Assembly: GCA_963836755.1 (NCBI GenBank)
Contig: CAWIKF010000002.1
Location: 128,001 to 192,000 of the forward strand
DNA length: 64,000 nucleotides
Reading direction: 5' to 3'
From: an uncultured Verrucomicrobiae bacterium
GTDB lineage: Bacteria; Verrucomicrobiota; Verrucomicrobiia; Chthoniobacterales; Chthoniobacteraceae
The notes under the pieces were generated by a model. That model had not been told where the DNA came from. It searched no databases and worked only from the letters and a program-made list of their open reading frames with translations. A program made the translations under genes and the position numbers. Positions within the stretch are counted from its first letter, which is position 1, and the number at the start of each line of letters is the position of its first letter. Positions 4,432 to 59,951 of this stretch are shown piece after piece.

Positions 4432-4480
4432 AAAAAAAGCCGCGCAGCCGGATTTCTCCCCGGCTGCGCGGTTTTTGTTT
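4432..4480. terminator. Bidirectional intrinsic terminator
   Basis: Perfect 12-bp stem CCGCGCAGCCGG (4440-4451)/CCGGCTGCGCGG (4460-4471), preceded by an A7 run and followed by TTTTTGTTT, between convergent genes. Confidence 0.9.
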
Positions 4481-4494
4481 GCGAAGGTCTGCGC

Positions 4495-5178
4495 CTACGC
4501 CGGGTTCACGTTGACCGATAGCGACATGCTCCAGTCGCCGGTGGTCGCGTCGCCGTCGAGGTAGATCATCCGGTATTCACGGATCTCGGGCTGGTTCGCG
4601 ACCGCGAGCGGACGCGTGTCCACGAAGGGCGAGAACAGGTCGGTCCCGAGATCGGTCCAAGTCGCATCCGTCGGGTGACGGCTTTGAACTTTGACGCCAG
4701 TCCAGCCGTCTTTTTCCCATGGAAGGGTGACGTTGCCGGCGTTGGTATCGGTTACATGGAAGACCGGCGGCGCGGATGGCTCGGTCGGCGCTGGGCTGCT
4801 GGTGCCGTCAATGCCGAGGTCGATGCCGATCGCCACGGTGTAGGCCGGGTGGTTCACGATCCGGGCGATCAACGCACGCAGGCGCGCGATCACGCCGGGC
4901 AGCACGGCAGTCGGCAATGCGCCGAAAACCGGCAGCGACGGGAAGGGCATTCCGGTGCCAGTGCCATTCTTGATGAGGTTTTTGTAGCTCGTCATCGTCT
5001 GCGTGGAGGTGCGCAGCTGCTTCAAGACCTGGAGGTAAATTGCCTTCAGGTAGTTGCAATCGTTGACGGCTGAGGTGATTTCCGTTGCCAGCAAGCCGAC
5101 GTTGGGGCCTTGCAGTGGGATTTTGGCTGCGAAGTTCTCGAGCCAGACGGGCTGGGAACCTTCATTTTTAGGGATCAT
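4495..5178 (-). CDS. Uncharacterised protein: helical N-terminal region + C-terminal FN3/Ig-like beta domain
   Basis: About 227 aa from ATG 5178, after an A-rich leader (alternative GTG 5205). C-terminal V-T-L-P-W...V-K-V-Q..W..L...F-V-D...E-Y-R-M-I-Y...G-D-W-S resembles FN3. No signal peptide visible. Confidence 0.8.
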   Translation of the reverse strand: MIPKNEGSQPVWLENFAAKIPLQGPNVGLLATEITSAVNDCNYLKAIYLQVLKQLRTSTQTMTSYKNLIKNGTGTGMPFPSLPVFGALPTAVLPGVIARLRALIARIVNHPAYTVAIGIDLGIDGTSSPAPTEPSAPPVFHVTDTNAGNVTLPWEKDGWTGVKVQSRHPTDATWTDLGTDLFSPFVDTRPLAVANQPEIREYRMIYLDGDATTGDWSMSLSVNVNPA

Positions 5179-5257
5179 TTTGTTTTTCTTTCTGTGTTGA
5201 GCCACGCCATGGATTGGCGCCGCGAAGCGATCCTGAGGGAGGAAAGCGTCGGTCGTG

Positions 5258-5284
5258 TGACGGAAAAGTTACTTTCCTGTGTCA
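5258..5284. promoter_or_regulatory. Imperfect inverted repeat between the array and the FN3-like gene (candidate operator or hairpin)
   Basis: TGAC-GGAAAAG-TTA-CTTTCC-TGT-GTCA. Confidence 0.4.
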
Positions 5285-5295
5285 TTTTGGCCGGA

Positions 5296-5603
5296 AATGG
5301 CTTCTGCCAGTGTGCGGAGCCATTCTGCCGGTGGGCCGAACCATTCTACCGGTGCGCAGAACCATTCGGCGCGTCGGCAGAACCATTCTGCCCGTGCGCC
5401 GAGGCCTCTGACGGCTGGCAGAACCATTCTACCGGTGCGCGGAACGATTCTGCCGGGCCGCCGAGCCCTCCGCCGGCGCGCAGAATCATTCCGCCGGTGC
5501 GCAGAACCGTTCTGCCGGGTCGCCGAGGCCTCCGCCGGGGCGCGGAACCATTCCGCCGACGCGCAGAATCGTTCTGCCGAGGCGTAAAACCGTTCTGCAA
5601 CAG
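5296..5603. repeat. Tandem array of about 15 units, 21 bp (three of 20 bp), consensus GAACCATTCTGCCGGTGCGCA
   Basis: Unit starts 5296, 5317, 5338, 5359, 5380, 5401, 5421, 5442, 5463, 5483, 5504, 5525, 5545, 5566, 5587. Confidence 0.95.
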
Positions 5604-5642
5604 AGTAAACTGCCGCTTCCCGCGTGCTTCGGGAGAAACCGC

Positions 5643-6842
5643 CTACGCCGAAAGCCTTTTCGCCAGTCGCCGAAAGGGACGCAACAGCGGCGCGTATTTC
5701 CACGGGTGGCGATCCCGCAGCGGCGCACGCACTTTTACCGCAGCCCGCCACGGGACGCGTGGCTTCGGCGCATTTTCGAGGCCCGCAAGCCAACAGTCCG
5801 CCATTTTTTCCACGGAAAACTCGGTGCGCGCAGTCGCGGTCGCCGCGAGCGATTTTGCCTGCAGCTCGTCGCGATGCGTGTGCAGGTGGATGATCGCCCG
5901 CGCGTAACCGTCGGTGTCGTCCGGTGGCACGGGCACGCCGTTGGTTTCATTCACCACCTCGCGAATGCCGCTCTCGAGCGCGCTCGCCACCGGGACGACT
6001 CCGTGCCCCATCGCCTCCAGCAGGCTCATCGGCAATCCCTCGGATTCCGAGGCGAGCAGGAAAATGTCGCGGTCGGCCAGCAGTTGCGGCACTTCGTGAT
6101 AGGCGATGGTGTCGAGGAAGCGGACGGTTTGCGCTGGCGAGGTGCTGCGCATATTTTCCTCCAGCCACGCGCGCTCCTCGCCCTCGCCGGCGATCACCCA
6201 ATCGAACGGCACGCCCGCGGCGGTGAGCGCGGCCATGATTTGCGGGAAAAGTCGCACCCGTTTTTGCGGATGGATGAGCCGGCCGAAGTAAAGGATGCGC
6301 AAGGGGCGGTCGAGGTTTGGCGGATCGGCGCGGGGCGGGGTGCGAAAGGGGATGCCGTTCGGCACGTAGTGGACCGCGTTCAACAAGAAGTCAGGCATCC
6401 CGCGGAGCCTGTCGGCAATGGCTTGGGAGACGGCCATGAGGCCATCGACACAATGGCGAAAGGGGCGGACGGCATCGTAGAAAATCCAATGATCGCAATG
6501 GATGACGGCAAGGCGGGTGACGCGATCTGGGACATAGCGAAGTATTTCGAGCGGCCCCTCACCGAGCCAGGCGATGACCGCATCCGGCCGGAACCGCGCC
6601 AGCCCGGAGAGGATGTTTTTCACACAATCCTCGAAGATGAGGCGGCGATCATCCTGCCGCGTGAAGTTGAGCCCGAGCGCGGCGATGTCGGAATCGTAGT
6701 CGCAGAGATGGGTGAGCGCGAAAAGCCGGATGTCGTGGCCGCGCGCGCCGAGCTCGGCGGCGAGGTTGAGGAGCGCCGTGGATGCGCCGCCCATGGCAAG
6801 GTCGCCGACGATGAATGCGAGGCGCATTGGGCGGTCGGTCAT
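5643..6842 (-). CDS. Glycosyltransferase family 4
   Basis: LAMGGAST N-terminus, ILYFGRLIHPQKRV, SESEGLPMSLLEAMGHG. Confidence 0.92.
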   Translation of the reverse strand: MTDRPMRLAFIVGDLAMGGASTALLNLAAELGARGHDIRLFALTHLCDYDSDIAALGLNFTRQDDRRLIFEDCVKNILSGLARFRPDAVIAWLGEGPLEILRYVPDRVTRLAVIHCDHWIFYDAVRPFRHCVDGLMAVSQAIADRLRGMPDFLLNAVHYVPNGIPFRTPPRADPPNLDRPLRILYFGRLIHPQKRVRLFPQIMAALTAAGVPFDWVIAGEGEERAWLEENMRSTSPAQTVRFLDTIAYHEVPQLLADRDIFLLASESEGLPMSLLEAMGHGVVPVASALESGIREVVNETNGVPVPPDDTDGYARAIIHLHTHRDELQAKSLAATATARTEFSVEKMADCWLAGLENAPKPRVPWRAAVKVRAPLRDRHPWKYAPLLRPFRRLAKRLSA

Positions 6843-59687: not shown

Positions 59688-59762
59688 TGGATGAAATTTC
59701 GCGCGCCGCGGCGGTCGCGGGCCTCCGAATTTTTCCAAACTTTGACCCAAGCGGCTCAAACA

Positions 59763-59951
59763 GGCGTCGGTGAACCGGAAATCTTCGCCGTGGAAGCCCT
59801 AAAAGGCGTCGGTGAAACGCTATCGGTCGTCGGGGAAGCGAAAAAAGACGTCGGGGAAACGATATCGGACGCAGATTTAGGGCTATTGGACGTCGATGAA
59901 TCGATATCGGACGTCGATGTTGGGCTATCGGACGCACCTTTTGCTCTAAAC
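59763..59951. repeat. Tandem array of 9 degenerate 21-bp units, consensus GACGTCGRTGAAACGCTATCG
   Basis: Unit starts 59763, 59784, 59805, 59826, 59847, 59868, 59889, 59910, 59931. Confidence 0.9.

What the first reader, a model, noticed from the sequence alone, without database searches (positions are those of the whole stretch)
4432..5603. Candidate undescribed cassette: palindromic 21-bp array + operator-like site + helical/FN3-like gene + own terminator
Seen, in the direction of transcription (minus strand): about 15 tandem units, an imperfect palindrome (5258-5284), an A-rich leader, a 227-aa gene with no signal peptide and no glycan-enzyme motifs, and a strong terminator. The unit is inverted inside a polysaccharide operon. 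Inference: array and protein form one functional unit, for example a protein that binds or polymerises on its own array, an autoregulated switch, or a protein plus repeat-derived RNA. I do not know a named system with this layout.
Basis: partly seen in the sequence, partly recalled or inferred. Interest (0 to 1): 0.8.

Follow-up and report, generated by a model that had tools for sequence, protein, structure and literature searches.

The report
Gene-linked 21-base DNA repeat array
A non-coding DNA repeat whose unit is two helix turns long sits just upstream of this uncharacterised gene and of nearly all its relatives examined, and it is likely a protein-binding control array, possibly read by the gene's own product, which would give a way to test what the unexplained 20-21-base repeats of bacteria do.

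Summary
The array (15 units, 5291-5599), the 227-aa gene and the terminator are real. The pairing is a rule: 41 of 44 non-redundant homologues from other genomes have a 21/42-bp array within 750 bp upstream, against 0 of 43 downstream and 27 of 1000 random windows. All 8 family genes in this genome have one. The period is fixed, but unit sequences differ freely: this genome holds 71 arrays in 46 unit families, 47 of them gene-less. The arrays show no coding or strand-specific RNA signal, and their conservation peaks at 21 and 10.5 bp, which points to double-stranded DNA. The predicted protein is a helical domain with no fold match plus an FN3 domain; it has no Pfam hit, signal peptide or catalytic signature. 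The proposed operator palindrome is chance-level, the terminator looks bidirectional, and the upstream glycosyltransferase gene is inverted too. Best reading (0.4): a phased binding array coated by its own gene's product; binding is untested. Constant-length 20-21-nt bacterial repeats are published as unexplained (PMC8161180); I found no paper linking them to a gene family. This scan noted the same pairing before on other DNA.

The parts
5291..5599 (.). Tandem array of 15 units, 21 bp each (three 20-bp variants give a 62-bp higher-order period); dyad core GCRGAA-nnn-TTCYGC; non-coding
   Evidence: pooled tests
5601..5608 (-). Array-edge octamer TTACTCTG, shared by arrays of unrelated unit sequence in this genome; -10-like (TAnnnT), role unknown; here it points into the array
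   Evidence: 20 of 31 genome copies lie within 150 bp of an array, 0.36 expected
5258..5284 (.). Imperfect palindrome in the leader; present but chance-level, not shown to be an operator
   Evidence: 120 of 300 shuffles equal the best dyad
5179..5200 (-). A/C-rich leader before the ATG, also seen in homologues and other cassettes
4495..5178 (-). Gene for a 227-aa protein (P0001) of an unnamed family with 2,734 clusters at 50% identity
4804..5178 (-). Predicted N-terminal helical domain (aa 1-125: helices 9-27, 31-71, 96-109, 115-121 and a Pro-rich linker); no clear fold match
   Evidence: pLDDT 94.9; best VIA Z 6.0, rmsd 4.2, 89 aligned
4498..4782 (-). Predicted C-terminal fibronectin type III domain (aa 133-227)
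   Evidence: VIA Z 11.4, rmsd 2.0, 82 aligned to 6tpw_A; Foldseek
4432..4479 (.). Intrinsic-terminator-like hairpin with T-runs on both strands, between the cassette and the convergent methyltransferase gene
5643..6842 (-). Context: GT4 glycosyltransferase gene on the same strand directly upstream of the array; not part of the conserved unit
59758..59934 (.). Second, gene-less 21/42-bp array in the window; part of it matches the leader of another cassette in the genome (86% over 43 bp)

Best explanation
The 21-bp array is non-coding and sits upstream of this gene and of nearly all homologues examined, and it likely acts as double-stranded DNA, a row of dyad sites on one face of the helix that the gene's own product is predicted to coat, which would set the activity of the neighbouring promoter. 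Shown: the cis pairing, the fixed period with free sequence, the lack of coding and RNA-strand signals, the predicted two-domain fold, and gene-less and gene-truncated copies. Inferred: that a protein binds, that it is the cassette's own product, that it reads mainly spacing and symmetry (one symmetric oligomer per two turns) with loose sequence preference, and that the outcome is autoregulation or a local nucleoprotein filament. Gene-less arrays would be copies that lost the gene or were copied without it.
For: Linkage: 40 of 41 non-redundant homologue loci against 0 of 43 downstream and 27 of 1000 random windows; 41 of 44 with three later loci; 8 of 8 family genes in this genome; 8 of 8 testable loci of a shorter subfamily in a Bacteroidales genome. 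DNA-level signals: conservation within units has power at 21 bp (1.71x) and 10.5 bp (1.53x) but not at 3 bp (0.70x); synonymous fraction 0.479 against a null of 0.482; dyad arms 4.3 against 3.4. G-T against A-C mismatches on the sense strand are 127 against 120. Promoter-like sequences lie between array and ATG in several cassettes (read by eye), so there the array is upstream DNA. Forty-six unit families in one genome are hard to assign to one sequence-specific host factor. Unit similarity follows protein similarity: chance level below about 50% identity, and 14 of 28 pairs share at least 14 of 21 positions above 75%; one pair from different genera has a 21/21 unit at 60% protein identity. 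Twelve conserved K/R columns, four of them around helices 3-4 and the long helix, and no conserved His/Cys or signal peptide. Sampled DNA was either array-free (0 in 680 kb of three genomes without these genes) or rich (15-33 per Mb in four genomes, each with array-adjacent candidate genes).
Against: No known DNA-binding fold; FN3 is usually a protein- or sugar-binding module (general knowledge). Net charge is about neutral (mean -0.2; 50 of 114 positive). Close pairs can have unrelated units (75% identity: 9/21; 89%: 11/21), and the co-variation may be plain co-inheritance among kin. Three of 44 homologues lack an array. In a second, all-helical family only 3 of 6 have one, and that family shows no profile match to this one. 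Forty-seven of 71 arrays have no gene, and only 18 of those share a unit with a gene-bearing array. Genome G004 lacks both families searched yet has 10 arrays in 300 kb, three of them next to other uncharacterised genes. Whole-unit symmetry is only modest (11.9 against 10.7 of 21). No promoter is evident in this cassette's own leader.
Confidence: 0.4

Rival explanations
1. The array is an upstream promoter module read by a host factor (a nucleoid protein, an activator or DNA shape). It tunes or varies expression of a multi-copy gene family whose products do something unrelated to DNA, for example self-assembly or binding other proteins through FN3.
For: FN3 domain and neutral charge. Promoter-like sites between array and gene, of sigma70 type in some cassettes and sigma54 type in others (by eye). 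One -10-like octamer is shared by arrays of many unit types and lies near whole helical turns from the dyads (12 outward cases, R 0.70; 7 families, p about 0.03, post hoc). Sequence-unrelated protein families share the architecture. BrickBuilt repeats carry promoters (PMC4596501, abstract).
Against: It does not explain why this gene family keeps a 21-bp array across phyla while the unit sequence is free. The octamer is limited to this genome, and its phase fit is about as good for periods of 10-12 bp.
Confidence: 0.25
2. The cassette is a selfish or mobile element: the protein measures or promotes 21-bp duplications and helps arrays spread, and gene-less arrays are its non-autonomous copies.
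For: Recent copies at unrelated sites: array plus leader plus the first 35 codons at 96% identity, and array plus leader plus about 7 codons at 89%. Gene-less arrays match others mostly over the array plus up to about 60 bp. Distribution is patchy but multi-copy: 4 of 201 phylum genomes, 8 of 41 relatives, up to 8 matches each. Several frameshifted or fragmentary genes.
Against: No catalytic signature and no nuclease, recombinase or HUH match. No terminal inverted repeat or target duplication at this cassette: the longest match is 6 bp. The genome's clear Y1 transposase has its own palindromic flanks. None found in viral contigs or plasmids.
Confidence: 0.2
3. The array works as RNA, either a structured leader or processed 21-nt pieces bound by the protein.
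For: The array folds very stably (z -7.9). Here the -10-like octamer points into the array, so a transcript could start at the first unit. There is a slight excess of double changes in dyad pairs (149 against 118 expected; 62 complementary).
Against: Any dyad array folds well. There is no strand preference (sense strand more stable in 29 of 65) and no G-U excess, no Rfam match at gathering score, and no unique spacers. In other cassettes the promoter-like site lies downstream of the array.
Confidence: 0.08
4. The array encodes a heptad (7-aa) repeat peptide.
For: 21 bp equals 7 codons; more open frames than a column-shuffled null (3.8 against 2.9 of 6); one representative is called with the repeat read in frame (P0056).
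Against: Regular 20-bp units shift the frame. There is no synonymous excess and no 3-bp signal. Stop codons are near the dinucleotide expectation (788 against 898), and the gene's frame is open from array to ATG in only 7 of 47.
Confidence: 0.03

Closest known systems
Constant-size 20-21-nt bacterial tandem repeats (Subirana and Messeguer 2021, PMC8161180; abstract, passages and sections 3.3 and 4.2 read)
   Same: Fixed 20-21-nt unit with variable sequence, many species-specific families per genome, mostly non-coding, few or none in many genomes, some 40-41-nt forms. The authors note that the length is two helix turns and that the function is unknown.
   Different: In what I read the paper links the repeats to no gene family ('upstream' occurs 0 times in its main text). 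Here they are tied in cis to one uncharacterised protein family. Its supplements and the 2020 J Bacteriol paper (PMC7549362, not held) were not seen.
Plasmid centromere/operator arrays bound by the adjacent gene's product: F sopC-SopB (PMC3177203, start of abstract seen: 12 x 43 bp, each with a 16-bp inverted repeat); R1 parC-ParR (recalled)
   Same: Tandem, helically phased dyad sites next to a gene. This is what the best explanation works like.
   Different: Chromosomal and multi-copy; no ATPase or filament-motor gene beside it; no ParB, HTH or ribbon-helix-helix match; unit sequence is free.
Repeat-filled MITEs of Porphyromonas gingivalis: BrickBuilt (PMC4596501, abstract and passages) and MITEPgRS (PMC2575886, section 3.4)
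   Same: Dispersed intergenic copies filled with a tandem unit; promoter elements at the edges (BrickBuilt).
   Different: Those have IS5-family terminal inverted repeats and one unit sequence per element (23 nt in BrickBuilt). Here no such ends were seen, there are 46 unit families, and there is a cognate non-transposase gene.
REP/BIME arrays with RAYT transposase, REPtrons (PMC3733652, passages)
   Same: Dispersed palindromic intergenic repeats, with gene-bearing and gene-less forms.
   Different: The associated protein has no HUH/Y1 match, and the period is fixed at 21 bp with free sequence.

Membership tests
Constant-size 20-21-nt bacterial tandem repeats | Unit of 20-21 nt in tandem | tested here: met
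   (period 21 is the commonest TRF period in the genome, 111 rows)
Constant-size 20-21-nt bacterial tandem repeats | Several families of different sequence in one genome | tested here: met
   46 unit families among 71 arrays
Constant-size 20-21-nt bacterial tandem repeats | Not protein-coding | tested here: met
Plasmid partition centromere (sopC/parC type) | Tandem phased dyad repeats | tested here: met
Plasmid partition centromere (sopC/parC type) | Adjacent ParB/HTH or ribbon-helix-helix binding protein | tested here: inconclusive
   no Pfam/NCBIfam hit; the C-domain is FN3; the N-domain has no clear match, which excludes nothing
Plasmid partition centromere (sopC/parC type) | Adjacent partition NTPase gene | tested here: not met
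   the neighbours in the window are a GT4 glycosyltransferase and a methyltransferase
Plasmid partition centromere (sopC/parC type) | Protein binds the array | not testable with these tools
   needs EMSA or ChIP
MITE with internal minisatellite (BrickBuilt, MITEPgRS) | Terminal inverted repeats and target duplication | tested here: not met
   longest inverted match 6 bp, longest direct match 5 bp at this cassette's edges; no empty site was available to confirm the edges
MITE with internal minisatellite (BrickBuilt, MITEPgRS) | Dispersed gene-less copies in unrelated flanks | tested here: met
REPtron (REP + RAYT) | Adjacent gene is a Y1 HUH tyrosine transposase | tested here: not met
   PF01797 matches two other places in the genome, not this gene; no conserved His
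CRISPR-type guide array | Unique spacers between conserved repeats | tested here: not met
   all 15 units are variants of one consensus; no Rfam match at gathering score
Integron gene cassette | attC site after the gene | tested here: not met
   a simple attC scan found 2 sites in the genome, neither at this cassette
DUF6261 (PF19775) genes with 41/42-bp arrays, as in earlier scan notes | PF19775 match | tested here: not met
   no hit for P0001, 116 family members or 13 other cassette proteins; none in the genome at E 0.1; distant homology untested

The most novel reading that the evidence does not exclude
This is one member of an undescribed class of protein-DNA systems behind the constant-length 20-21-nt repeats of bacteria: a non-enzymatic helical protein that polymerises on DNA with a two-turn ruler, selects or generates arrays of that period whatever their sequence, and so seeds dozens of satellite-like arrays across the chromosome.
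Probability: 0.2. Interest if true: 0.92.

Novelty: categorically new. Interest (0 to 1): 0.75.

Why it matters
Bacterial repeats of fixed 20-21-nt length but free sequence have been described as an unexplained class (PMC8161180). A protein family that almost always sits directly behind such an array is a concrete candidate partner, so the question becomes testable with one small soluble protein and a 300-bp DNA. If the protein binds, it would do so with a fold not known to bind DNA and by reading spacing more than sequence. The novelty class refers to the gene-array pairing, which did not fit the known systems tested. The repeat class alone is already known, and the mechanism is not shown.

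Tried and rejected
Family scans: Pfam, NCBIfam and PHROGs gave nothing for P0001; one other cassette protein has weak fn3 and phage minor-tail hits. Fold searches of the N-domain alone gave no clear match; this does not show the fold is new. Rfam: no match at gathering score. Empty-site comparison failed: no close relative among 40 genomes. No homologue in viral contigs or plasmids. No longer or fused form among 7,999 candidates, which is weak evidence. No RNA holder listed. One DNA run holds the strain, and one contig spans 4580-5352 from the gene into the array; it may be the source sample, so it is not independent, and no joints were seen. The complex-prediction tool and the ESM Atlas were not available, so self-association is untested. 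The leader palindrome as an operator was rejected. An integron link was considered because other cassettes lie by an integrase or attC-like ends, but none is at this cassette. Both Y1 transposase hits lie within 3 kb of an array (14% of the genome does), but the clear one has its own flanks. A shared edge motif like TTACTCTG was not found in six other genomes with 6-12 arrays each. My prediction that genomes lacking the two families searched would lack arrays held for three genomes and failed for G004. A recalled lead, that P. gingivalis hagB has upstream 42-bp repeats, was not verified. Literature searches for the pairing found no description; supplied comparison papers. The pooled spacing count (686 of 852 at 21 bp) is partly circular because arrays were picked by that period; searches are the unbiased evidence.

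Full report
Observation. On the minus strand the region reads: end of a GT4 glycosyltransferase gene (5643-6842), the octamer TTACTCTG (5608-5601), an array of 15 units (5599-5291), a leader of about 110 bp, a 227-aa gene (5178-4495) and a 13-pair hairpin (4471-4440). TRF gives period 21, 14.3 copies and a 62-bp higher order, because every third unit in the middle is a 20-bp variant. The core is the dyad GCRGAA-nnn-TTCYGC. The 5258-5284 palindrome is chance-level (120 of 300 shuffles). The hairpin has T-runs on both strands, so it probably also serves the convergent operon. The glycosyltransferase gene is inverted together with the cassette, and both are GC-richer (0.57-0.67) than the flanks (0.51-0.55).

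Protein. P0001 has no Pfam, NCBIfam or PHROG hit, and 116 aligned members have no shared Pfam family. A profile finds 2,734 clusters at 50% identity. Named relatives come from Verrucomicrobiota, Acidobacteriota (Pyrinomonadaceae), Bacteroidales, Methylumidiphilus and Fimbriimonadaceae. The model (pLDDT 89.9) has four helices with a Pro-rich linker, then a beta-sandwich that matches FN3 domains (Z 11.4, rmsd 2.0, 82 aligned). The helical domain alone (pLDDT 94.9) has no clear match (best Z 6.0). There is no signal-peptide-like stretch (2 of 114 representatives pass a crude test) and no conserved His or Cys; there are twelve conserved K/R columns and the net charge is near zero.

Array and gene are linked. 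An unbiased scan of lags 5-64 upstream of the first 16 homologue loci put 21, 41, 42, 62 or 63 among the top three lags in all 16, one of them short and weak. With a fixed score, 40 of 41 non-redundant homologue loci from other genomes have an array within 750 bp upstream, against 0 of 43 downstream and 27 of 1000 random windows. Of 64 loci I dropped 9 from this genome, 11 near-duplicates and 3 with under 500 bp upstream. Three later loci added one yes and two no: 41 of 44. The loci are not independent, but arrays occur in every main clade of the tree, with unrelated units. A shorter subfamily in a Bacteroidales genome has arrays at 8 of 8 testable loci. In this genome all 8 family genes have one. 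The family is patchy and multi-copy: 4 of 201 phylum genomes and 8 of 41 relatives, this genome included, with up to 8 matches.

The genome-wide picture. Period 21 is the commonest TRF period in the 3.18-Mb genome. I kept 71 arrays (63 from TRF, 8 from autocorrelation; two candidates dropped), which fall into 46 unit families. Twenty-two precede an uncharacterised gene of this look, assigned by eye; only 8 of them are shown homologues of P0001, and a second family has no profile match to it and carries arrays in 3 of 6 outside loci. Two arrays are recent copies cut off after 35 and about 7 codons (96% and 89% identity). Forty-seven have no gene, and 18 of these share a unit with a gene-bearing array, four with ours. 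Two genes of the other families lack an array. Samples of other genomes were array-free (G022 400 kb, G030 100 kb, G006 180 kb) or rich (G024 6 in 400 kb, G028 6 in 400 kb, G002 5 in 320 kb, one of them coding). G004 lacked both families searched yet had 10 in 300 kb, three of them beside other uncharacterised genes.

At what level does the array act? Not as protein: there is no synonymous excess (0.479 against 0.482 in 80 arrays), no 3-bp signal, and the units shift the frame. Probably not as RNA: it folds well (z -7.9), as any dyad array would, but G-T and A-C mismatches are balanced (127 and 120) and neither strand folds better (29 of 65). Conservation within units peaks at 21 and 10.5 bp, and dyad arms are longer than chance (4.3 against 3.4; 25 of 112 at p 0.05 or less), though whole-unit symmetry is modest. 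In several cassettes a promoter-like sequence lies between array and ATG (by eye). Together this fits double-stranded DNA read on one face of the helix. Unit sequence follows protein similarity above about 55% identity and is random below 50%, with exceptions both ways: 9/21 at 75% identity, and 21/21 at 60%.

An unexplained edge motif. TTACTCTG occurs 31 times in the genome, 20 of them within 150 bp of an array (0.36 expected): 15 after the array pointing away, 1 inside the called edge, and 4 pointing into it, as here. It flanks arrays of many unit types and lies on either side relative to the gene. It resembles a -10 box without a consistent -35. Outward copies lie near whole turns from the dyads (7 families, p about 0.03, post hoc, and not specific to 10.5 bp). 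It was not seen in other genomes.

Mechanism. I put 0.4 on a phased binding array coated by the gene's own product, which would regulate the adjacent promoter or form a local filament. The cis rule and the fixed period with free sequence are shown; binding, the identity of the binder and the outcome are inferred. Against it stand the absence of a DNA-binding fold, the neutral charge, close paralogues with unrelated units and the many gene-less arrays. The rivals are a host-read promoter module in front of a gene of unrelated function (0.25), a selfish element whose protein generates or spreads arrays (0.2; recent truncated copies, but no enzyme signature, terminal repeats or target duplication), an RNA role (0.08) and a heptad peptide (0.03). 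Self-association could not be modelled and no expression data were found.

Relation to what is known. The arrays meet the description of the constant-size 20-21-nt bacterial repeats of Subirana and Messeguer (PMC8161180; abstract, passages, sections 3.3 and 4.2), who note the two-turn length and give no function or gene link in what I read. Passages of PMC6749651 and PMC8625621 added none. Their 2020 paper was not held and no supplements were read, so a link could be stated there. The unit works, on my best reading, like sopC-SopB (PMC3177203, start of abstract), but has no NTPase neighbour and no matching fold. It did not meet the tests for repeat-filled MITEs (PMC4596501, PMC2575886), REPtrons (PMC3733652, passages), CRISPR-type arrays, integron cassettes or DUF6261. 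Searches found no paper on the pairing. Earlier notes of this scan report the same kind of pairing on other DNA; they are unchecked, came after my own linkage result was in hand or in view, and supplied the Subirana and P. gingivalis papers.

Verdict. The cassette is real and the array-gene link is strong. The repeat class is known but unexplained; the pairing appears undescribed in the literature searched; the mechanism is inferred. Interest 0.75.

Noticed in passing
window 59758-59934: Second 21/42-bp array, gene-less, between two divergent membrane-protein genes; part of it matches the leader of the cassette at G000:C2:661578-661620 (86% over 43 bp).
   Followed up: partly
G000:C2:923713-924208 and G000:C1:273583-274243: Recent copies of array plus leader plus the first 35 or about 7 codons of a cassette gene, at unrelated sites; the first is cut off just before an attC-like end.
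   Followed up: partly
G000:C2:764695-765667, C2:1471263-1472290, C2:1698700-1698820: One cassette lies right after an integron-integrase-like gene, and others have attC-like ends nearby; a roughly 200-bp segment next to one array recurs at three other sites.
   Followed up: partly
L047, L052, L091, L095, L096, L100, L103, L106, L109; P0048-P0075, P0174: Many homologues have a Trp-rich N-terminal extension or short upstream frame with spaced W/D motifs between array and core gene. It recalls motifs in phage tail or baseplate proteins (from memory, untested).
   Followed up: no
G000:C2:764536-764695 and C2:1471141-1471263: Leaders of two related cassettes carry a sigma54-like -24/-12 sequence, while others carry sigma70-like ones (by eye).
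   Followed up: no
L230:2715-3872, L236:5075, L242:1549-2499 (G004): Arrays in front of further uncharacterised protein families of 160-260 aa that neither profile detected; the set of array-linked families is wider than searched.
   Followed up: partly
G000:C1:228706-229500, C2:1903757-1904400, C2:641073-641400: Three arrays abut long, Gly/Thr-rich, secreted-looking repeat genes of 750-957 aa; in two the edge octamer or a close variant points towards them.
   Followed up: no
G000:C1:58953-60794: A RAYT-like Y1 domain lies in one open frame with what looks like the C-terminal part of an alanyl-tRNA synthetase, 400-600 bp from an array.
   Followed up: partly
G000:C2:1835076-1836600: A phage major-capsid-like gene (by eye) follows an 84-bp repeat that was dropped from the array list; possibly a prophage remnant.
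   Followed up: no
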